From assembly GCF_003860215.1 (NCBI RefSeq), contig NZ_RQYH01000025.1, positions 2,132-34,131 of the forward strand: a stretch of DNA of 32,000 nt, in the 5' to 3' direction. A program made the translations under genes and the position numbers. The notes under the pieces are model-generated. The model saw nothing but the letters and a program-made list of their open reading frames with translations, was not told the DNA's origin and did no database searches. Position 1 is the stretch's first letter, and the number at the start of each line of letters is the position of its first letter. The stretch is from Desulfovibrio sp. OH1186_COT-070 (lineage in GTDB: Bacteria > Desulfobacterota > Desulfovibrionia > Desulfovibrionales > Desulfovibrionaceae). Shown here in pieces: positions 1 through 9,374 of this stretch.

Positions 1-399
1 TGCGGCACGCCCCGCCCCATGCGCTACGATGCGGTGCCCTCGGCCATTTTCACGGCTCCCGAAATCGGTGAAGTGGGTCTGAGCGAGGCGCAGGCAAGGG
101 AAAGCGGCATTGCTGTGGTCTGCGGCACAGTGCAGATGCGCGAGTTGGGCAAGGCCCATGCCATGGGCGAGTTGCCGGGTTTTTTCAAAATCGTGGCCGA
201 AGCCCAAAGCGGCCGTGTTCTCGGCGTGCACATTGTGGGCGCGCACGCATCGGACATGGTTGCCGAAGCCGGGCTGGCGCTGACAGCCGGACTCACCGTC
301 AGCCAGATCGCCGAAACCATCCATGCGCACCCCACTCTGGCCGAGGGCATGTACGAGGCGGCCCATGCCGTCCTGCACACCATGTGGGCCACACCATAA
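1..399 (+). CDS. Pyridine nucleotide-disulfide oxidoreductase, C-terminal dimerisation domain (dihydrolipoyl dehydrogenase family); 5' end lies outside the window
   Basis: The frame is open from base 1 and ends at TAA 397-399. The translation carries the typical Pyr_redox_dim signature (...GVHIVGAHASDMVAEAGLAL...IAETIHAHPTLAEGMYEAA). Confidence 0.8.
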   Translation, partial: CGTPRPMRYDAVPSAIFTAPEIGEVGLSEAQARESGIAVVCGTVQMRELGKAHAMGELPGFFKIVAEAQSGRVLGVHIVGAHASDMVAEAGLALTAGLTVSQIAETIHAHPTLAEGMYEAAHAVLHTMWATP

Positions 400-465: not shown

Positions 466-1131
466 TCAGTTTTTGATGATTTCAAAAAACTCTTCAGGCC
501 GCAGAACGGCCACTTTTTTGTTGACAAACGGCCCCAGAAGGCCACTTTCCTCCTGCTGGCGCAGTATTCTGTACAGCGAGATGCGATGAACGCCCAGCAG
601 GGCGGCCATCTCCTGCCGTGAAATCCCCACATCGGCAACGGGCGGGTCACTGCCGGGCACGATGCGCTGCGCCAAAAACTTGCATGTCCGCACCAGCACG
701 CTGTCCAGATACAAGGAGGCGGCCTGATGGGAAAGCGCGCGCATCTTGCGCGCCATGGATTGGGCGAGGTTCATGAGCAGGTCGGGGTGCTCCCTGCGCA
801 CAACATCCAGGCTTTGCGGCGAAAAAGCCCAGACCACGCTTTCCACGGAGCAGGTGAAATATCCTTCGCTGGGCATGGGATCAAAAAAGGGGGTTTCGCC
901 GAAAAGGCATCCTTCATGGATGTACCAGAGGATTTTTTCCATTCCTTCAAGGCTCTGCTGCGTCAGACGCACCTTGCCCCGCTCCAGAAAATACAGCTTT
1001 CTTCCCAGAGGAATCCTTTCTCCCCTGCGCAGCACACAACGCTCCGCCAGATGCAACACTGTGCGCCACGGAGCGTTCATCTCGCGCATTTCCTTGAAGG
1101 CCAGACCGCGTCCACCTACATTGAGAGCCAT
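466..1131 (-). CDS. Crp/Fnr-family transcriptional regulator (cNMP-binding domain plus C-terminal HTH)
   Basis: Start is ATG at 1131, preceded by a G-rich SD (GGGGGG). The product begins MALNVGGRGL... and contains FGETPFF-type cNMP-binding beta-roll motifs. The C-terminal HTH is ISRQEMAALLGVHRISLYRILR. The longer track ORF reaching 1329 has no SD. Confidence 0.85.
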   Translation of the reverse strand: MALNVGGRGLAFKEMREMNAPWRTVLHLAERCVLRRGERIPLGRKLYFLERGKVRLTQQSLEGMEKILWYIHEGCLFGETPFFDPMPSEGYFTCSVESVVWAFSPQSLDVVRREHPDLLMNLAQSMARKMRALSHQAASLYLDSVLVRTCKFLAQRIVPGSDPPVADVGISRQEMAALLGVHRISLYRILRQQEESGLLGPFVNKKVAVLRPEEFFEIIKN

Positions 1132-1197
1132 GCTGCCCCCCCTTGCAGAGCATTTTCCGGCTTCAGCATGCCACGACACAAAGGAAAAAACAATTTT

Positions 1198-1213
1198 TTG
1201 TGAAAAATGTTGC
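1198..1213. promoter_or_regulatory. Candidate CRP/FNR-type operator TGTGA-N6-TTGCA in the divergent crp/permease promoter region
   Basis: Sequence is TGTGAAAAATGTTGCA. It shares a 13-nt exact core, TTTTTGTGAAAAA (1195-1207), with a second intergenic site at 9868-9880 on the opposite strand. Confidence 0.3.
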
Positions 1214-1369
1214 AAATGAAACACGGCATGGCGTGCATTCCTGCTATGGTGGAGCCAATTCTTCCGCTGCCGGATGACAGGGTCGAAGGGCCAGGACACA
1301 ACGCCGGCAGTGCCACGCGGCCACCGCAAACCTCAGGCCGCATATGCCCACCGGGCAAGAGAGGACGCC

Positions 1370-2770
1370 ATGCCTGAAGCCCTCGCGCCCAACCGCATTC
1401 TGCTGTACAAGTGGATCACCAACCTTATCGTCCCAATTGCCGCCTATCTGCTGCTTGTCCAGAACAGCAGCCTCACTCCGCCCATGGCGGCCTTTCTGGC
1501 TGTAACGCTCTGGGCCGTGTGCGCCTGGGCCATGGAAACCCTCAACGATATTGCCGTGGGCATTCTCCTGCCGGGCCTGTACGTCCTGTTTTGCGAGGGG
1601 GTGAACATCGGCGTGGTCCATGCCCCGTGGCGCAGTGAAATCTGGATTATCGCCGTGGGAGGCTTCATTCTGGGCAAAATCATTCAGGAAACAGGGCTCG
1701 GCAAACGCATTGCCATGGGCAGCGTACGCGCCATGGGCGGCAGTTTTTCCGGGGCACTGCTGGGCCTGACCATCGGTGCCATCATCCTCTCGCCTCTGGT
1801 GCCTTCCATCATGGGCAAGGCCGCCATTCTCTGCGGCGTGGCCATAAGCCTCTGCGATGCCATGAATTTCAAGCCCAAGGGCCGCGAAGCCACGGCCATC
1901 ATGCTGGGTGCCTGCATTGCCGTAGGCTCCACCAAGCTGGCCTGGCTTACCGGGGCGGGCGATCTTGTCATGGGCATGGGTCTGGTGGACAAGGCCATGG
2001 GCACCCAGACCTCCTGGATGGAATACGCCAAGTACAACTTTGTGCCCGCCATGCTCTACACCTTCCTGTCCATGGGCATTGTTCTGGTGCTGCTGCGCTC
2101 CTCCGTTTCCCGCGAAACCATCCGTTCCACAGTACAGCAGGCTTACAGCGAGCTTGGCCCCATGAGCGCAGAGCAAAAGCGCGCCATGCTTCTTCTGCTG
2201 GTCACCGTGGTGCTGCTCAGCACAGACAAGCTGCACGGCATCAGCGCCGGAGTGGTGCTGATGATCATCTCCGCCCTGTCCTTTGCGCCGGGCATGGCGC
2301 TCATGGACGCCGGACGGCTCAGCCGGGTGAACTTTGCGCCCATTTTCTTCATTATGGGGTGCATGGCCATCGGCAGCACCGGAGGTTTTCTCAAGGTCAC
2401 ACAATGGATGGCCGGACTGGTGCTGCCCCTGTTCAGCGACACGGGTACGATGCTGGCATCTCTTTGTTCTTACGCCACGGGCGTTGGCATGAACTTTTTG
2501 CTCACACCGCTGGCGGCCACCTCCACCCTGACCGCGCCCATTACCGAACTGGGCATGCGGATGGGTCTGGATCCGCGCATCCTCTATTTCTCATTCCAGT
2601 ACGGACTGGACAATCTCATCTTTCCCTATGAGTACGCCCTGTATCTCTACTTTTTCAGCAGCGGCTACATCAATTTCAGGGAAATGGCCCTTGTCATGGC
2701 TGTGCGCATGCTGCTGGCCGGACTTTTTGTGGCCTGCATCGCCATGCCCTACTGGCGTCTGGTATTGTGA
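1370..2770 (+). CDS. Anion permease of the ArsB/NhaD superfamily (DASS/SLC13-like di/tricarboxylate or sulfate-type transporter)
   Basis: Start is ATG 1370 with an SD (GAGAGG). The product is a 466-aa polytopic hydrophobic protein with repeated halves. I recognise its motifs as DASS-type anion permease; the substrate is not inferable. Confidence 0.7.
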   Translation: MPEALAPNRILLYKWITNLIVPIAAYLLLVQNSSLTPPMAAFLAVTLWAVCAWAMETLNDIAVGILLPGLYVLFCEGVNIGVVHAPWRSEIWIIAVGGFILGKIIQETGLGKRIAMGSVRAMGGSFSGALLGLTIGAIILSPLVPSIMGKAAILCGVAISLCDAMNFKPKGREATAIMLGACIAVGSTKLAWLTGAGDLVMGMGLVDKAMGTQTSWMEYAKYNFVPAMLYTFLSMGIVLVLLRSSVSRETIRSTVQQAYSELGPMSAEQKRAMLLLLVTVVLLSTDKLHGISAGVVLMIISALSFAPGMALMDAGRLSRVNFAPIFFIMGCMAIGSTGGFLKVTQWMAGLVLPLFSDTGTMLASLCSYATGVGMNFLLTPLAATSTLTAPITELGMRMGLDPRILYFSFQYGLDNLIFPYEYALYLYFFSSGYINFREMALVMAVRMLLAGLFVACIAMPYWRLVL

Positions 2771-2867: not shown

Positions 2868-4319
2868 ATGGGCCACCCGACAATTTACCCCACCGGCGTC
2901 ACCCTGTTCAAGCCTGAAAAGGCTTGGGGCGGATTCACCATCTTTCAGGCGCAGGAAATGGGCGCAGTGCTCATGGACATGAACGGACGCGAAGTCAACG
3001 TCTGGAAAGGCGTGCTCGGCATGCCCAACAAAATCCTGCCCGGCGGCTACATGCTCACCAGCCGGGGCCGCCGCAGCGGCAAATACAGCGTGCAGGATGG
3101 CCTGGATGTGGTGCAGGTGGACTGGGACGGCAAGGTCGTCTGGAAGTTTGACAGAAACGAATACATCGAAGATCCCGGCACACCCGGACGCTGGATGGCC
3201 CGCTACCACCATGATGTGCAGCGCGAGGGAAATCCCGTGGGCTATTACGCCCCGAACATGGAGCCGAAACCTCTGGAAGGCAATACCCTGATACTGGCTC
3301 ACCGCAATGCCCGCAATCCCAAAATTTCCGACAAACTTCTGGTGGACGACCTCATTCTGGAAGTGAACTGGGAGGGCGAAATCCTTTGGGAATGGCTGTG
3401 CAATGAACATTTTGACGAGTTCGGTTTCCGTGAGGGAGCAAAAAACACCCTGGCCCGCAATCCCAACTACCGCCCCACCCAGCCCGAAGGGCAGGGCGAC
3501 TGGATGCACCTCAACTCCATGTCTGCCCTGGGTCCCAACAAATGGCACGATGCGGGCGACGAACGCTTTCACCCGGACAACATCATCGTTGACGGCCGCG
3601 AAACCAACATCATCTTCATCATCAGCAAAAAGACCGGCAAAGTTGTCTGGAAGCTGGGGCCGGACTACGATACAACCCCGGAACTGCGCGCCATGGGCTG
3701 GATCATCGGCCAGCACCATGCCCACATGATCCCGAAGGGACTGCCCGGCGAGGGCAATATCCTGGTTTTCGACAACGGTGGCTGGGGCGGCTATGACGTG
3801 CCCAATCCCGGATCGCCCACGGGCGTCAAGGCCGCCCTGCGCGATTACTCCCGCGTACTGGAAATAGACCCCACAAGCCTCAAAATCGTGTGGCAGTATA
3901 CCCCGCGCGAAGCAGGCTTTCTGGAACCCATGGACAGCAACCGCTTCTACAGCCCCTTTATCAGCAGCGCGCAACGCCTGCCCAACGGCAACACCCTGAT
4001 TACCGAAGGTTCCGACGGGCGCGTGTTCGAGGTAACGCGCGAGCACGAAATCGTGTGGGAATTCATTTCGCCCTACTGGGGCAGGAACGTACCCATGAAC
4101 ATGACCTACCGCGCCTATCGCGTGCCCTACCAATGGGTACCCCAAGCCCCCAAGCCGGAAGAAAAACCCATCGCCCCTCTGGACGTGACCACATTCCGCG
4201 TGCCCGGAGCCGCCGCCCTGGGTGACCGCGTCAGGGAGTGCGTTGTGGACGGCTGCGTACCCTATGAGGGCAGCAATGCCCTGTGCGTGGCCTCAGAAGA
4301 AGACATCAGGGACAAATAG
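2868..4319 (+). CDS. Arylsulfotransferase (ASST)-like beta-propeller protein with no signal peptide
   Basis: Start is ATG 2868 with a strong SD (AGGAGG). Repeated propeller-type motifs are present (GNTLILAHRN, GNILVFDNGGWG, NGNTLITEGSDGRVFEV) along with His-rich segments (HHDVQ, GQHHAHM), as in the ASST families. The N-terminus MGHPTIYPTGVTLF is not signal-like. Confidence 0.65.
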   Translation: MGHPTIYPTGVTLFKPEKAWGGFTIFQAQEMGAVLMDMNGREVNVWKGVLGMPNKILPGGYMLTSRGRRSGKYSVQDGLDVVQVDWDGKVVWKFDRNEYIEDPGTPGRWMARYHHDVQREGNPVGYYAPNMEPKPLEGNTLILAHRNARNPKISDKLLVDDLILEVNWEGEILWEWLCNEHFDEFGFREGAKNTLARNPNYRPTQPEGQGDWMHLNSMSALGPNKWHDAGDERFHPDNIIVDGRETNIIFIISKKTGKVVWKLGPDYDTTPELRAMGWIIGQHHAHMIPKGLPGEGNILVFDNGGWGGYDVPNPGSPTGVKAALRDYSRVLEIDPTSLKIVWQYTPREAGFLEPMDSNRFYSPFISSAQRLPNGNTLITEGSDGRVFEVTREHEIVWEFISPYWGRNVPMNMTYRAYRVPYQWVPQAPKPEEKPIAPLDVTTFRVPGAAALGDRVRECVVDGCVPYEGSNALCVASEEDIRDK

Positions 4320-4328
4320 CAGCTACGC

Positions 4329-4364
4329 CGGAACGCCGCGATCCCCCGGGCCCGCGGCGTTCCG
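4329..4364 (+). promoter_or_regulatory. Intercistronic GC-rich stem-loop (12-bp perfect stem, 12-nt loop)
   Basis: CGGAACGCCGCG (4329-4340) pairs with CGCGGCGTTCCG (4353-4364). It starts 10 nt after the ASST-like stop and ends 4 nt before the SD (GGAG 4369-4372) of the next gene. No U-tract follows. Confidence 0.5.
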
Positions 4365-4378
4365 CAACGGAGAAAAAC

Positions 4379-5200
4379 ATGGGCAGCATTCTCTACACGG
4401 CTCCGGACTGCATCCGCTGCAAAATCGTCAAGGATTTTCTGGCCGAAAAGCGGCAGGAGTACAGGGCGGTGGATTTCAAAGGCGATACCGAAACATTCAA
4501 CAAGTTTTACCGCACCTACCGCAAGGCCATCTACCGTAACCCGGAAGGAGTCGAGTTTCCGCTGTTTCAAGATGGCGATGTCATCAGACAGGGTTCCGGC
4601 GAAATTCTCGCCTATCTGCTCTCCGGCCATGGGCTGGAGGGCTGCGTGACCCGCAGCGACATGCTGCACGGCAAAATTTCAGGACTCTACCCCTCACAAT
4701 GCCCGGACGGGCAGGAAGAAAATTTCCAGACCTTGGTCAGACGCCTTGCCGAAGGCGGCCTCCAGGTCTGGCTGCAAACCGATGGGCGCAAGCCGGAGCT
4801 GCTGGAAAAACTGCTGTGCGTCAAGAATACGCACGTTCTCTGCAATATGGTGGGCGGCGCGGAAGCCACAACAAAAATTTTCGGCGGCGCGCCGTCCGCC
4901 GACGAACTGGGCGCAACCATCCGGCTGGTGAGCAACACGCCTGACGGCGCGGTACGCTTTCTGGTCATGCCGCTGCCCGATGACAGCGGCTGGTCCTGGC
5001 CCCGGCGGGAAGATGCCGCCGCAGCGGCAAAAATGGTGGCCGCAGCATGCGGCCAACCGACACTGCCCTACACCATCACACCCGTCACTCCGGAAATGAC
5101 TTGGGATACCCGTGGGTTGGAGCCCCTGCCGGGCGAAAACCTGCTCATGTACCGCTCTGCCGCGCGGCAGCATTTGTTCAAGGCAGAGATCGCCAGATAA
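4379..5200 (+). CDS. Glutaredoxin/NrdH-like domain (CxxC) fused to a radical-SAM-activase-like C-terminal region lacking the CX3CX2C motif
   Basis: Start is ATG 4379 with SD GGAG. The N-terminus MGSILYTAPDCIRCKIVKDFLAEK... is a thioredoxin-fold CxxC motif. The remainder resembles the non-cluster part of NrdG/PflA-type activases (ISGLYP..., LQTDGRKPELLEKLL, AVRFLVMPLP). No Cx3Cx2C motif occurs anywhere in the protein. Confidence 0.65.
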   Translation: MGSILYTAPDCIRCKIVKDFLAEKRQEYRAVDFKGDTETFNKFYRTYRKAIYRNPEGVEFPLFQDGDVIRQGSGEILAYLLSGHGLEGCVTRSDMLHGKISGLYPSQCPDGQEENFQTLVRRLAEGGLQVWLQTDGRKPELLEKLLCVKNTHVLCNMVGGAEATTKIFGGAPSADELGATIRLVSNTPDGAVRFLVMPLPDDSGWSWPRREDAAAAAKMVAAACGQPTLPYTITPVTPEMTWDTRGLEPLPGENLLMYRSAARQHLFKAEIAR

Positions 5201-5407
5201 AAATTTGCTCCTTTGCCCGCCAAAAGCGGAAAACACGCCCGGCCGCGCCCCTTGCGCGGCCGCCTCGCGTGGTCTACATTTGCGCCCTGAATTTTCCGGC
5301 AACGTCTTTTCCGCACGGCAAAAAACGGCATGGGAACGCGGAGCAGACGGCCGTATTTGCCTGGAGCGAAAGGCTTTGCCCGCAGCTCTCCAGAAAAGGA
5401 GCAAGAC

Positions 5408-6667
5408 ATGTCCCGGATCAAGAATCTGCGTGAGGAAGCCCTGAACCTGCACAAGGACAACCAGGGAAAAATCGAGGTTCGCGTAAAAATCCCCGTGCGG
5501 GATGCCGATGACCTGACGCTGGCCTATTCGCCCGGCGTTGCGGAACCCTGCATGGAAATCCACCACCACCCCGAAAGGCTGGACTGGTACACCAACCACG
5601 CCAATTTTGTTTGCGTGGTATCCAACGGCACGGCTGTGCTGGGCCTGGGCGACATCGGCGCTGCCGCAGGCATGCCTGTCATGGAGGGCAAGTCTTTGCT
5701 TTTCAAGGCATTTGCTGATGTGGACGCTTTTCCCATCTGCGTGAATACCAGGGACACACAAAAAATCATCGAGCTCATCGAACTCATGACTCCCACCTTC
5801 GGCGGCGTAAACCTTGAGGACATCAAGGCCCCCGAATGTTTTGTCATTGAAGACGGCCTCAAGGAGCGCGGCATCTTCAAGGGCCCCATTTTTCATGATG
5901 ACCAGCACGGCACAGCGGTGGTCACGCTGGCCGGCCTGATCAATGCCCTGAAAGTGACCAGCAAAAAGCTCGAAGACATCAAGGTGGTCACCAGCGGCGC
6001 GGGCGCGGCGGGCATGGCCATTGTCAAGCTGCTCATGGCCGTGGGGCTCAAAAACGTCATCATGTGCGACTCGCGGGGCAGCATCTGGGAAGGACGCGGC
6101 GAAGGCATGAATCCCTACAAGGAAGATATTGCCCGGCGCACCAATCCCGACAGGGTCAGGGGCGCTCTGGCCGATGCCATCAGGGGCGCGGATGTTTTCA
6201 TCGGCGTATCGGCACCCGATACCCTGGATGAGGGCATGATCCGCAGCATGGCCAAGGATCCCATTGTCTTTGCCCAAGCCAATCCGATTCCGGAAATCTG
6301 GCCGCTGCAACGCGCCCATGATGCCGGAGCCAGAGTGATTTCCACCGGGCGCTCCGACTGCCCGAACCAGATCAACAACGTTCTGGCCTTTCCCGGCATT
6401 TTCCGCGGCGCTCTTGACGTGCGCGCCACGGACATCAACGATGCCATGAAAATCGCTGCGGCCCGCGCCCTGGCCGATCTGGTCGGGCCTGACGAACTGG
6501 GACCGCAGATGATCATTCCCTCCAGTTTCAACCCCGAGGTGGCCCCTGCGGTGGCTGCGGCAACGGCCAAAGCCGCCATGGACAGCGGCGTTGCCCGCAT
6601 GCGGCTCGACCCTGCATCTGTGGCGGAAAGCCTGCGCGCGCGCCTGGCCGGACGAGTGCGGGCCTGA
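5408..6667 (+). CDS. NAD(P)-dependent malic enzyme (short form, no PTA domain)
   Basis: Start is ATG 5408 with SD AAAGGAG. The product carries diagnostic malic-enzyme motifs: LAYSPGVAEPC, GTAVLGLGDIG, PVMEGKSLLFK, FGGVNLEDI, FHDDQHGTA, GAGAAG and ANPIPEI. Confidence 0.92.
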   Translation: MSRIKNLREEALNLHKDNQGKIEVRVKIPVRDADDLTLAYSPGVAEPCMEIHHHPERLDWYTNHANFVCVVSNGTAVLGLGDIGAAAGMPVMEGKSLLFKAFADVDAFPICVNTRDTQKIIELIELMTPTFGGVNLEDIKAPECFVIEDGLKERGIFKGPIFHDDQHGTAVVTLAGLINALKVTSKKLEDIKVVTSGAGAAGMAIVKLLMAVGLKNVIMCDSRGSIWEGRGEGMNPYKEDIARRTNPDRVRGALADAIRGADVFIGVSAPDTLDEGMIRSMAKDPIVFAQANPIPEIWPLQRAHDAGARVISTGRSDCPNQINNVLAFPGIFRGALDVRATDINDAMKIAAARALADLVGPDELGPQMIIPSSFNPEVAPAVAAATAKAAMDSGVARMRLDPASVAESLRARLAGRVRA

Positions 6668-8288: not shown

Positions 8289-9374
8289 ATGAAAAAGTCA
8301 ATCCTGCTTTTGCTGTGCACCGCCCTGCTGGCGGGCACAATGCTTGTGGCGGCAGAATCCGGACAAAAGGATCACGGAGGTACGGCAGACATGAAGACAC
8401 AAAAAACCTCCGGCCTGCGGGACGCATACTTTGCGGGCGGCTGTTTCTGGGGGGTGGAGGAATATTTTTCCAGAATTCCTGGAGTGATGGATGTCGCCGT
8501 AGGGTATGCCAACGGCGAAAAAAAGAACCCCACCTATGAAGAAGTCTGCTCCGGAAAAACGGGCCATGCGGAAACCGCGCATGTGCGCTACGATCCGGCC
8601 ATTGTCAGCCTGCGGACTCTCGCCGGACAATTTTTCAAGATCATTGACCCGTTCAGCGTGAACCGGCAGGGAAACGATGTGGGCAGCCAGTACCGGACCG
8701 GGCTGTACTATCAGCATGAGGAAGACAGGAAGATTCTTGCAGACGTAATGTCGGAGGAAGCAAAAAAATACGGCAGACCGCTGGCAGTGGAACTGACGCC
8801 GCTGAAAAACTATTACCCGGCGGAAGACTACCACCAAGACTACCTGAAGAAAAATCCCAACGGCTACTGCCACATCAGTTTCGACAGCCTCAAGGATATT
8901 CCCGCCCGGACAACGGGCCTGGTGGACCCCCAAAAGTATTCCAAACCGTCTGAAGCGGAGTTGAAAAAACGCCTCACGCCGGAGGAATATGCCGTTACCC
9001 GGCAGGCGGGGACAGAGCGCGCATTTTCCGGAAAGTACTGGGACCACAAGGCAGACGGCATATATGTGGATGTGGTGACGGGAGAGCCGCTTTTTTCTTC
9101 CGCCGACAAATTCGATTCCGGGTGCGGCTGGCCAAGCTTTTCAAAGCCCGTTGATCCGGCTGTGGTGACCGACCATGAAGACCGCAGCCACGGCATGCTG
9201 CGGACCGAGGTACGCAGCCGCGTGGGGGATTCCCATCTGGGGCATGTTTTTGACGACGGGCCGAAAGAGAGGGGCGGTCTGCGCTATTGCATCAACAGCG
9301 CCGCCATCCGTTTTGTCCCTTATGACGAAATGGAAAAAGAGGGCTACGGAAACCTGAAACACCTTGTCCGGTAA
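8289..9374 (+). CDS. msrAB: Bifunctional methionine sulfoxide reductase MsrA-MsrB with N-terminal signal peptide
   Basis: Start is ATG 8289 with SD GAGGA. The signal-like N-terminus is [24 protein letters not shown]. The MsrA motif [10 protein letters not shown] is present. The MsrB region carries CGWPSF and the [11 protein letters not shown] catalytic Cys. Confidence 0.9.

What the first reader, a model, noticed from the sequence alone, without database searches (positions are those of the whole stretch)
4379..5200. Glutaredoxin domain fused to a radical-SAM-activase-like body that has lost its Cx3Cx2C cluster motif
Residues 1 to about 85 form an NrdH/Grx-like CxxC domain (APDCIRCK). The rest is colinear with the post-cluster part of NrdG/PflA-type activating enzymes (ISGLYP / LQTDGRKPELLEKLL / RFLVMPLP pattern). 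No Cx3Cx2C motif exists anywhere in the protein. The Grx domain therefore appears to replace the SAM-cluster module. Its position immediately after the ASST-like gene echoes the AssT-DsbL/DsbI pairing. It may be a redox maturation or activation partner of a previously undescribed type.
Basis: inference. Interest (0 to 1): 0.5.

Follow-up and report, generated by a model that had tools for sequence, protein, structure and literature searches.

The report
Glutaredoxin fused to cluster-less radical-SAM fold
This gene encodes a previously undescribed protein, a small thiol-redox (glutaredoxin-like) domain fused to a radical-SAM enzyme body that has lost its iron-sulfur site, and it always travels with a cytoplasmic sulfotransferase-like enzyme, a lipoamide dehydrogenase and a lipoyl carrier protein, which suggests an uncharacterised NADH-driven reductase system in gut sulfide-producing bacteria.

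Summary
ORF 4379-5200 (273 aa) has an NrdH/Grx-like CxxC domain at residues 1-85. Its C-terminal domain is homologous to the post-cluster part of NrdG2-type activases: 24 of 28 family members hit TIGR02495, hhalign gives 97% probability (E 5e-11), and the top Foldseek hits are radical SAM enzymes. No Cx3Cx2C is present, and the GGE motif reads GLYP.

This is not a one-off. The fusion is a broad family of about 255-293 aa proteins with no Pfam or NCBIfam model. It occurs in Desulfovibrionaceae, Desulfomicrobium and uncultured anaerobes.

The fusion is co-conserved, down to 25-35% identity, with three other genes:
- a signal-peptide-less ASST-like beta-propeller whose only invariant Cys lies in a disordered C-terminal tail
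- an Lpd-like flavoprotein
- a GcvH lipoyl carrier

An anion transporter usually sits alongside.

My best reading is a thiol relay: NADH, then Lpd, then lipoyl-GcvH, then the Grx CxxC, then the ASST-like tail Cys. The dead half-barrel would act as a docking module. The most likely chemistry is PAPS-reductase-like release of sulfite from an imported sulfate ester. That step is inferred, not shown.

The scan also noted this gene pairing in one other genome (first-reader note only).

The parts
4379..5200 (+). Grx-RS-like fusion gene (273 aa plus stop), here called GrxRS
   Evidence: Open frame. 232 homologues, nearly all 270-280 aa. AF2 pLDDT 93.9 and pTM 0.89.
4379..4633 (+). NrdH/Grx-like thioredoxin-fold domain, residues 1-85
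   Evidence: Family scans, PDB profile hits to NrdH and BC3987 and Foldseek. Residues invariant across the whole superfamily: C11, C14, Y44, P61 (the cis-Pro position) and Q71.
4409..4420 (+). CxxC redox motif, C11-I-R-C14
   Evidence: Invariant in 44 diverse family members, and R13 is nearly invariant.
4649..4975 (+). Core of the radical-SAM-like domain (residues 91-199), aligned to NrdG2 strands beta2-beta5
   Evidence: hhalign probability 97%, E 4.8e-11. ISGLYPS pairs with ITGGEPT. LQTDGRKPELLEKLL pairs with LDTNGSRPDVLERLL. N156..G159 pairs with the DVK motif. TIGR02495 hits.
4700..4702 (+). C108, just after the degenerate GGE position
   Evidence: Invariant in Desulfovibrionaceae and Desulfomicrobium members. 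Not conserved in the wider family, which keeps S-G-G-D-P there.
4976..5197 (+). C-terminal part of the barrel domain (residues 200-273) with the conserved Y-R-x-A-x-R helix (R259, R263)
   Evidence: Confidently modelled strands and helices. R259 is invariant and R263 nearly invariant family-wide. No sequence match to NrdG2 in this stretch.
4329..4364 (+). GC-rich hairpin between the ASST-like stop codon and the GrxRS Shine-Dalgarno, with no T-run
   Evidence: Read directly in the sequence. Not reported as a terminator.
2868..4319 (+). Cytoplasmic ASST-like beta-propeller (483 aa from the ATG at 2868), the conserved partner. The single invariant Cys473 lies in a disordered C-terminal tail.
   Evidence: PF05935 85 bits and PF14269 64 bits. 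Best Foldseek matches are Cpz4 (E 3e-15) and E. coli ASST (E 6e-10). Residues 470-483 have pLDDT below 50. C473 is the only invariant Cys.
1274..2770 (+). DASS-family anion:Na+ symporter, first gene of the putative operon
   Evidence: PF00939 and TIGR00785. A DASS gene lies within 6 kb of GrxRS in 25 of 57 species loci. TctABC replaces it in distant loci.
466..1329 (-). Divergent Crp/Fnr-family regulator
   Evidence: cNMP_binding plus HTH_Crp_2. A Crp-type gene lies within 7 kb in 24 of 57 loci, and next to GrxRS even where ASST-like is not adjacent.
1..399 (+). 3' end of an Lpd-like flavoprotein disulfide reductase (full gene at G000:C158:1109-2497)
   Evidence: Pyr_redox_2 plus Pyr_redox_dim, CLNRGC and HAHPT motifs. 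It is 54-58% identical to the Lpd that follows GrxRS in Mailhella and Desulfomicrobium loci.

Best explanation
GrxRS is the dedicated thiol-disulfide relay of a conserved four-protein cytoplasmic reductase system.

Proposed electron path:
1. NADH reduces the Lpd-like flavoprotein.
2. Lpd reduces the lipoyl group on the cluster's GcvH.
3. Dihydrolipoyl-GcvH reduces the C11/C14 pair of the Grx domain.
4. The Grx domain acts on the single invariant cysteine (C473) on the flexible C-terminal tail of the ASST-like enzyme.

The NrdG-derived half-barrel no longer makes radicals. It has no cluster cysteines, and in this clade it has no GGE motif. I propose it is kept as a docking module. It would hold either the partner's C-terminal tail, as its activase ancestors hold the C-terminal glycyl loop of their substrates, or the lipoyl-lysine arm, as LipA does.

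The most likely chemistry resembles PAPS reductase. The ASST-like enzyme takes the sulfuryl group from an imported sulfate ester. The group passes to the tail Cys as an S-sulfonate. The Grx CxxC then releases sulfite.

The net reaction is sulfate ester + NADH -> alcohol/phenol + sulfite + NAD+. It needs no ATP, and the sulfite can feed DsrAB.

Shown: the domain homologies, loss of the cluster motif, the co-conserved four-gene module, the single tail Cys, and intact redox motifs in Lpd and GcvH.

Inferred: the order of electron transfer, the docking role of the barrel, the sulfuryl/sulfite chemistry and the substrate.
For: Homology and loss of the cluster:
- Family scans, the profile-profile comparison and the model with its fold search establish the NrdG2-type fold.
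- No Cx3Cx2C occurs in about 60 family members. The next tier of profile hits are genuine 250-aa activases with Cx3Cx2C at about position 27.
- Family-wide invariant residues concentrate in the Grx domain (C11, C14, Y44, P61, Q71) and at barrel-top positions (G136, R259).

Conserved module:
- Desulfovibrionaceae loci show ASST-like, GrxRS, Lpd and GcvH together.
- Four loci at only 25-40% GrxRS identity show TctABC-(AcnX)-GrxRS-ASST-like, plus Lpd and GcvH in two of them and GcvH alone in a third; the fourth has neither next to it.
- Genome-level co-occurrence is 10 of 10 against 0 of 5.
- All cluster Lpds carry CxxxxC and HAHPT, and all GcvHs carry the ESVK lipoyl-lysine motif.
- The window's own genome keeps all four parts. 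The Lpd lies 3 kb upstream, and its GcvH type sits on another contig.

Partner enzyme:
- It has the PAPS-independent sulfotransferase fold and a disordered tail.
- C473 is its only invariant Cys.
- It has no signal peptide.

Other:
- dsrAB is present in the own genome.
- Established knowledge: PAPS reductase (CysH) uses one Cys on a flexible C-terminal tail, forms an S-sulfocysteine, and is resolved by Trx/Grx. Lipoyl proteins plus Lpd are known to reduce CxxC proteins, as in the M. tuberculosis Lpd-DlaT-AhpD system and the lipoyl-dependent Ohr/OsmC peroxidases.
Against: - There is no biochemical or expression evidence.
- Domain geometry could not be examined, so it is unknown whether the CxxC faces the barrel mouth.
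- Lpd and GcvH are missing next to GrxRS in 13 of 46 informative loci, and here GcvH is unlinked.
- The conserved transporters (DASS, TctABC) and neighbours such as malic enzyme and AcnX suggest a di- or tricarboxylate substrate. That is not obviously an aryl sulfate, unless the substrate carries both a carboxylate and a sulfate group.
- The catalytic His of ASST could not be mapped residue by residue. Sequence similarity to solved ASSTs is weak.
- OsmC next to GcvH in several genomes allows an antioxidant role for the Lpd/GcvH pair.
Confidence: 0.5

Rival explanations
1. Maturation or repair factor. GrxRS acts once or occasionally on the ASST-like enzyme. It would reduce an inhibitory disulfide, persulfide or sulfenate on the tail Cys, or help folding. 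It would not take part in each catalytic turnover.
For: Tight pairing with the ASST-like gene. The ancestors of the barrel are activating enzymes that act on a partner protein. Lpd and GcvH are absent from the locus in some genomes.
Against: A dedicated NADH-Lpd-GcvH supply line is conserved with the pair across very distant lineages. That fits stoichiometric electron demand better than occasional repair. General Trx/Grx systems could do occasional repair.
Confidence: 0.17
2. General lipoyl-dependent antioxidant or nitrosative-stress module. GrxRS would be a broad-specificity disulfide or S-nitrosothiol reductase fed by Lpd/GcvH, alongside OsmC-type peroxidases and under a Crp/Fnr (HcpR-like) regulator. 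The ASST-like gene would only be a neighbour.
For: OsmC lies beside the ASST-like gene or beside GcvH in several genomes, including the window's own. DJ-1/PfpI and MsrAB genes lie nearby. A Crp-type regulator stays next to GrxRS even where ASST-like is not adjacent. In D. desulfuricans 27774 a GcvH-OsmC pair (Ddes_0152/0153) is co-regulated (PMC5701242 supplement). Its identity with this module was not verified.
Against: Genome-level presence and absence of GrxRS tracks ASST-like exactly in the 15 genomes tested. OsmC is absent from the distant loci, while ASST-like is always there. Anion transporters are part of the module, which points to substrate metabolism rather than stress defence.
Confidence: 0.15
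3. Non-canonical radical or metallo-enzyme. The CxxC pair plus C108, or a partner ligand, binds an Fe-S cluster or another metal at the former cluster site. GrxRS would still activate or modify the ASST-like protein, for example at the conserved F-R-V-P-G-A-A segment, which faintly resembles a glycyl-radical motif.
For: Three Cys (C11, C14, C108) are invariant within the Desulfovibrionaceae clade. Distant members keep an S-G-G-D-P stretch like the SAM-binding GGE motif. The F-R-[VML]-P-G-A-A segment is conserved in all ASST-like partners. Some glutaredoxins are known to bind [2Fe-2S] clusters.
Against: Only two Cys are invariant family-wide, and C108 is clade-specific. The clade that has C108 has lost the GGE-like motif, so no lineage has both. 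The partner is a beta-propeller, not a glycyl-radical-enzyme fold. Genuine activases in the same genomes keep Cx3Cx2C.
Confidence: 0.06
4. Degenerate remnant: a decaying activase gene or an assembly or annotation artefact with no function.
For: Loss of the defining cluster motif, and sub-threshold scores against every curated family.
Against: Hundreds of intact full-length orthologues exist at 25-99% identity, with conserved length and invariant residues. The fold is predicted with very high confidence. Gene order is conserved.
Confidence: 0.01

Closest known systems
NrdG2-type anaerobic ribonucleotide reductase activase (TIGR02495) and PflA, both radical SAM glycyl-radical activating enzymes
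   Same: The C-terminal domain is homologous. It shares strands beta2-beta5 of the partial TIM barrel, including the D-T-N-G-x-x-P-like stretch (Q-T-D-G-R-K-P here) and the following L-L-E-x-L-L helix. Like them, it is a small single-barrel protein that works with one dedicated partner protein.
   Different: It lacks the first roughly 65 residues that carry beta1, Cx3Cx2C and alpha1. GGEP is replaced by GLYP. It has no Fe-S ligands. Its neighbour is not a glycyl radical enzyme. It scores 15 bits against a cut-off of 131.
NrdH-redoxin, small glutaredoxin-like proteins and thioredoxin-like BC3987
   Same: Thioredoxin fold of about 80 residues, with CxxC at the start of helix 1 and a cis-Pro position. 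NrdH likewise serves one dedicated reductase by reducing Cys residues on its flexible C-terminal tail (class Ib RNR NrdE).
   Different: The active site is C-x-R-C, not CVQC or CPYC. It carries a family-specific basic insert (F-Y-R-x-x-R-x-x-I-x-R). It is fused to a 185-aa barrel. The predicted reductant is lipoyl-GcvH/Lpd rather than thioredoxin reductase or glutathione.
PAPS/APS reductase (CysH) with thioredoxin or glutaredoxin
   Same: This is a working analogy. The partner enzyme has a single conserved Cys on a flexible C-terminal tail, sulfuryl-transfer chemistry is expected, and a dithiol redoxin is dedicated to resolving the adduct and releasing sulfite.
   Different: There is no homology: the partner is a beta-propeller ASST fold, not a PP-loop ATPase fold. 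The donor would be a sulfate ester rather than (P)APS. None of this chemistry is demonstrated.
E. coli AssT with DsbL/DsbI
   Same: A PAPS-independent sulfotransferase-fold enzyme is genetically paired with a dedicated thioredoxin-fold protein.
   Different: AssT, DsbL and DsbI are periplasmic or membrane-bound and oxidising (disulfide-forming). This pair is cytoplasmic and linked to an NADH-driven reducing chain. DsbL has no radical-SAM-like domain.
Lipoyl-dependent thiol relays: M. tuberculosis Lpd-DlaT-AhpD-AhpC, and Ohr/OsmC lipoyl-dependent peroxidases
   Same: NADH, Lpd and a lipoylated carrier protein deliver electrons to a CxxC adaptor protein that serves a terminal enzyme.
   Different: The adaptor here is a Grx-RS-like fusion and the terminal enzyme is an ASST-like propeller. 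The carrier is a free-standing GcvH, not an E2 lipoyl domain.

Membership tests
Radical SAM superfamily / NrdG2 activase (PF04055, TIGR02495) | Cx3Cx2C (or a variant three-Cys) motif that ligates the [4Fe-4S] cluster after strand beta1 | tested here: not met
   No such motif in P0001 or in about 60 full-length family members. Genuine NrdG2 proteins from related genomes have CNxxCPxCHN.
Radical SAM superfamily / NrdG2 activase (PF04055, TIGR02495) | GGE(P) SAM-binding motif at the end of beta2 | tested here: not met
   hhalign pairs G-L-Y-P-S with G-G-E-P-T. Distant family members keep G-G-D-P.
Radical SAM superfamily / NrdG2 activase (PF04055, TIGR02495) | Partial (beta/alpha)6 TIM-barrel fold | tested here: met
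   AF2 model pLDDT 93.9. Top Foldseek hits are SkfB, LipA, BlsE, BioB and PflA, probability 1.0, E 5e-5 to 9e-4. Only beta2-beta6 equivalents are present.
Radical SAM superfamily / NrdG2 activase (PF04055, TIGR02495) | Score above the curated family cut-off | tested here: not met
   TIGR02495 gives 15 bits against a cut-off of 131 for P0001. The best family member has E 4.5e-8, still below the cut-off.
Radical SAM superfamily / NrdG2 activase (PF04055, TIGR02495) | Genetic pairing with a glycyl radical enzyme (NrdD or PFL-like) | tested here: not met
   The neighbours are ASST-like, Lpd, GcvH and transporters in 60+ loci. The genome's glycyl radical enzyme has its own canonical activase.
Glutaredoxin / NrdH-redoxin | Thioredoxin fold with CxxC at the N-terminus of helix 1 and a cis-Pro loop | tested here: met
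   The model shows beta-alpha-beta-alpha-beta-beta-alpha over residues 3-82. TM-score is 0.72-0.75 to NrdH and BC3987. C11, C14 and P61 are invariant.
Glutaredoxin / NrdH-redoxin | Score above curated cut-offs, and the NrdH signature motifs (CVQC, WSGFRP) | tested here: not met
   PF00462 gives 16.7 bits against a cut-off of 22.9, and TIGR02194 gives 22.6 against 85.75. The sequence reads C-I-R-C and has no WSGFRP.
Glutaredoxin / NrdH-redoxin | Reduction by glutathione or thioredoxin reductase | not testable with these tools
   Needs biochemistry. The gene context instead points to lipoyl-GcvH and Lpd.
DsbL/DsbI-type partner of AssT | Periplasmic or membrane location and oxidising DsbA/DsbB-like proteins | tested here: not met
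   No signal peptide or transmembrane segment is visible in GrxRS or the ASST-like protein. The companions are NADH-linked reductive components.
PAPS-independent aryl-sulfate sulfotransferase (partner protein, PF05935/PF14269) | Six-bladed beta-propeller ASST fold and a score above the family cut-off | tested here: met
   PF05935 gives 85 bits against a cut-off of 24. Best Foldseek hits are Cpz4 (E 3e-15) and E. coli ASST (E 6e-10).
PAPS-independent aryl-sulfate sulfotransferase (partner protein, PF05935/PF14269) | Catalytic histidine that forms the sulfo-enzyme intermediate | tested here: inconclusive
   Many His are invariant (H114, H115, H145, H181, H214, H235, H283, H284, H286), and H283 aligns with the Q-H of Cpz4. 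No residue-level structural alignment to the E. coli catalytic His was available.

The most novel reading that the evidence does not exclude
The four-gene module (ASST-like, Grx-RS-like fusion, Lpd, GcvH) is an ATP-independent, NADH-driven sulfate-ester reductase. It would convert imported host- or diet-derived sulfate esters, for example sulfated phenolic acids, directly into sulfite. That would give gut sulfite and sulfate reducers such as Bilophila and Desulfovibrio a previously unknown route to H2S. The cluster-less radical-SAM barrel would be an example of an activase fold turned into a peptide- or lipoyl-arm-docking module for a redoxin.
Probability: 0.3. Interest if true: 0.85.

Novelty: new variant of a known kind. 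Interest (0 to 1): 0.64.

Why it matters
First, it documents a widespread protein family with no curated model in which a radical-SAM activase fold has lost its cluster and SAM motifs, yet is strongly conserved as part of a redoxin. That is a clear case of a radical enzyme scaffold reused for non-radical work, and it is a caution for annotation: some members are labelled 'pyruvate formate lyase activating enzyme'.

Second, it defines a conserved four-component system in Bilophila, Desulfovibrio, Mailhella and other anaerobes. Its parts are a cytoplasmic ASST-like enzyme, the fusion protein, Lpd and GcvH. The components suggest a directly testable reaction.

If the product is sulfite, this would be a new source of intestinal H2S from sulfated metabolites. 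It would also be a new biological use of the lipoyl-H-protein as an electron carrier.

Tried and rejected
- Tri-cysteine site (C11, C14, C108) as a general metal or cluster site. Rejected as a family feature, because C108 is confined to the Desulfovibrionaceae/Desulfomicrobium clade.
- Lpd and GcvH directly downstream in this window. Not so: the downstream gene is a malic enzyme. The Lpd lies just upstream of the window start, and the matching GcvH is on another contig next to OsmC.
- Canonical glycine-cleavage GcvH as the partner. The copy in the gcvT-H-PA-PB operon is the less similar one.
- Sequence-only PDB searches gave nothing for the C-terminal domain and only Cpz4 for the ASST-like protein. 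Structure prediction was needed.
- Six literature searches for this module or architecture found nothing relevant. The D. desulfuricans 27774 transcriptome paper mentions only a GcvH-OsmC pair.
- Taxonomy of the distant loci L100-L103 could not be established.
- Geometry of the CxxC relative to the barrel mouth could not be checked, because model coordinates are not exposed.
Full report
**1. What is at 4379-5200**

The + strand frame from the ATG at 4379 to the stop at 5198-5200 gives a 273-aa protein. A longer GTG-initiated frame from 4283 exists. Homologues, however, begin at the same M-x-I-T-L-Y-T-A-P-D-C as the ATG form, and a GGAG lies 6 nt upstream of that ATG.

The protein has seven cysteines, at positions 11, 14, 89, 108, 147, 155 and 224. 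It has no Cx3Cx2C.

**2. N-terminal domain**

On its own the window protein scores below threshold. Its best matches are GST_N_3 (E 8e-4), Glutaredoxin (E 9e-3) and NrdH/YruB-type NCBIfam models (E about 1e-4).

The evidence becomes solid at family level:
- All 28 aligned homologues hit PF00462, TIGR02194 and TIGR02196.
- A family profile finds solved NrdH and thioredoxin-like proteins at E 4e-7 to 4e-6.
- The AF2 model (pLDDT 93.9, pTM 0.89) superposes on NrdH/Grx structures with target-normalised TM-scores of 0.72-0.75.

The active site reads C-I-R-C.

**3. C-terminal domain**

- 24 of 28 members hit TIGR02495 (NrdG2), best E 4.5e-8, and 7 of 28 hit PF04055.
- I took ten genuine NrdG2 genes from related genomes and compared profiles. 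hhalign gives 97% probability and E 4.8e-11.
- Residues 91-199 align with NrdG2 columns 70-177. I-S-G-L-Y-P-S lies on I-T-G-G-E-P-T. L-Q-T-D-G-R-K-P-E-L-L-E-K-L-L lies on L-D-T-N-G-S-R-P-D-V-L-E-R-L-L. N156..G159 lies on the D-V-K strand.
- Foldseek against the PDB puts radical SAM enzymes first: SkfB, M. tuberculosis LipA, BlsE, BioB and E. coli PflA.

The alignment begins after the part of NrdG2 that carries beta1, CNxxCPxCHN and alpha1. At the level of architecture, the Grx domain plus a roughly 13-residue linker therefore stands where the cluster module used to be. I could not test whether the CxxC physically occupies the cluster position, because no coordinates were available.

**4. The fusion is a family**

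A word-indexed search found 232 homologues, nearly all 270-280 aa. They carry names such as 'hypothetical protein', 'glutaredoxin family protein' and, wrongly, 'pyruvate formate lyase activating enzyme'.

An exhaustive profile search with the C-terminal domain alone gave 328 hits.
- The upper tiers are 255-293 aa proteins with CxxC at position 11 and no Cx3Cx2C.
- Genuine roughly 250-aa activases with Cx3Cx2C at about position 27 appear only from about E 1e-16 downward.

In a 44-sequence alignment that reaches down to 24% identity, the invariant residues are C11, C14, Y44, P61, Q71, G136, L142 and R259.

C108 is invariant in Desulfovibrionaceae and Desulfomicrobium but is not conserved elsewhere. 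Distant members instead keep S-G-G-D-P, which resembles GGE. No lineage combines three conserved Cys with a GGE-like motif, which argues against a hidden cluster/SAM site.

In species genomes the close family occurs in Desulfovibrio, Bilophila, Mailhella, Solidesulfovibrio, Desulfomicrobium and uncultured relatives. In an even sample of 401 genomes of the phylum, nine carried the full-length form: eight in the window's genus, counting the window's own genome, and one in another family.

**5. Gene neighbourhood**

In the window the order is:
- Lpd-like 3' end (1-399, +)
- Crp/Fnr regulator (466-1329, -)
- DASS transporter (1274-2770, +)
- ASST-like (2868-4319, +)
- a GC hairpin
- GrxRS (4379-5200, +)
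- malic enzyme (5330-6667, +)

Across 57 species loci:
- ASST-like (at least 60% identical) lies within 6 kb in 44 of 52 informative cases and directly upstream in 25.
- Lpd and/or GcvH follow within 3.5 kb in 33 of 46 informative cases.

In the five loci where ASST-like is not adjacent, each genome still has an orthologue elsewhere (E about 1e-262). Five genomes with GrxRS all have ASST-like, and five relatives without GrxRS have none.

Four loci whose GrxRS is only 25-40% identical show the same core: TctABC-(AcnX)-GrxRS-ASST-like, plus Lpd and GcvH in two of them and GcvH alone in a third; the fourth has neither next to it.

All cluster Lpds have the CxxxxC disulfide and the HAHPT motif. 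All GcvHs have the E-S-V-K lipoyl-lysine site.

The window's own genome keeps all four parts:
- The upstream Lpd is 54-58% identical to the Lpd that follows GrxRS in Mailhella and Desulfomicrobium.
- A GcvH of the matching type (57-60% identical) sits on another contig next to OsmC.

**6. The partner enzyme**

The ASST-like protein starts M-G-H-P-T-I-Y-P and has no signal peptide. It scores well above the ASST Pfam cut-offs. Its model is closest to Cpz4 (E 3e-15) and E. coli ASST (E 6e-10).

It is unusually conserved, at 60-83% identity even where GrxRS is about 30% identical. Its only invariant cysteine is C473, in an x-x-C-V-plus-acidic tail that the model leaves disordered (pLDDT below 50 for residues 470-483). 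An F-R-[VML]-P-G-A-A segment about 25 residues upstream is also conserved, and I cannot explain it.

**7. How it most likely works**

The shown facts are:
- a CxxC redoxin fused to a dead activase barrel
- strict coupling to a sulfotransferase-fold enzyme with one Cys on a flexible tail
- a conserved NADH-Lpd-lipoyl-GcvH set
- an anion transporter
- a cytoplasmic location

From these I infer a relay: NADH, then Lpd, then lipoyl-GcvH, then the Grx CxxC, then the tail Cys. The barrel would serve as a docking surface. Its ancestors bind the C-terminal glycyl loop of their substrate proteins, and LipA-type barrels bind a lipoyl-lysine arm.

A single catalytic Cys on a C-terminal tail, resolved by a dedicated redoxin, is the design of PAPS reductase. 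Combined with ASST-type sulfuryl transfer, this gives the hypothesis that a sulfate ester is reduced to sulfite without ATP. The own genome has dsrAB to use that sulfite.

I put about 0.5 on the relay reading as a whole and about 0.3 on the sulfite chemistry specifically.

**8. Rival readings**

- Occasional repair or maturation of the ASST-like enzyme (0.17).
- A general lipoyl-dependent stress module, suggested by OsmC, MsrAB, DJ-1 and Crp/Fnr neighbours (0.15).
- A non-canonical metal or radical site (0.06).
- A degenerate remnant, which is excluded by the conservation data.

**9. Comparison and novelty**

The protein is not a member of the radical SAM superfamily in the functional sense. 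The cluster motif, the GGE motif, the family score and the glycyl-radical-enzyme pairing were all tested and not met. Only the fold and the homology are met.

It is Grx/NrdH-like in fold and motif position but lies below every curated cut-off and lacks the NrdH signatures.

The AssT-DsbL/DsbI parallel is only formal. That system is periplasmic and oxidising.

I found no paper on this architecture or module. The scan itself had noted the same pairing in one other genome, as an unchecked first-reader note.

I rate it a new variant of a known kind: a dedicated redoxin relay that uses a repurposed radical-SAM scaffold, within an uncharacterised four-component system.

**10. Limits**

- No model coordinates were available.
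- The taxonomy of the distant loci is unknown.
- The catalytic His of the ASST-like enzyme was not mapped.
- The genome co-occurrence samples are small, and the genomes are related to one another.

Noticed in passing
L011:7505-12017 (G000:C216): The genome's second GcvH sits directly after an OsmC-like gene and before a glycyl radical enzyme (812 aa, PFL-like plus Gly_radical) with its own ferredoxin-domain activase. OsmC plus GcvH looks like a lipoyl-dependent peroxidase pair.
   Followed up: partly
window 4194-4214 (ASST-like residues 443-449) and the orthologues in L001-L103: An F-R-[VML]-P-G-A-A segment about 25 residues before the tail Cys is conserved in every ASST-like partner. It faintly resembles the R-V-x-G glycyl-radical motif, and its role is unexplained.
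   Followed up: partly
G079:C10:698845-699084: In one genome of another family, a short ASST-like C-terminal fragment with an in-frame TAG lies right next to the GrxRS gene, while an intact copy lies about 11 kb away. This looks like a decayed duplicate.
   Followed up: no
Desulfovibrio genomes G099, G165, G255 and G283; loci L007, L012, L014, L041, L042, L047: Many genomes carry two close ASST-like copies plus a divergent paralogue (27-29% identity) near the same cluster. The ASST-like family has expanded in these bacteria.
   Followed up: no
window 2868-4319; cluster members listed: Public records name orthologues of the ASST-like protein either 'aryl-sulfate sulfotransferase' or 'thioredoxin'. 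Some GrxRS orthologues are named 'pyruvate formate lyase activating enzyme'. All of these names are likely to mislead.
   Followed up: no
G000:C158:1-1090 (L074:2-961), just upstream of the window: A DJ-1/PfpI-family gene precedes the Lpd-like gene. Together with MsrAB at window 8289-9374, this gives the region a thiol and oxidative-stress character.
   Followed up: no
L101:5267-6916 and L103:5180-6844: In two distant loci, a two-subunit AcnX-type (aconitase X) dehydratase lies between the TctABC transporter and GrxRS. In this window a malic enzyme follows GrxRS. Both hint that the substrate's carbon skeleton is a hydroxy di- or tricarboxylate.
   Followed up: no
P0162: One distant family member has S-H-R-C instead of C-x-R-C, so it is a natural monothiol variant of the redox site.
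   Followed up: no
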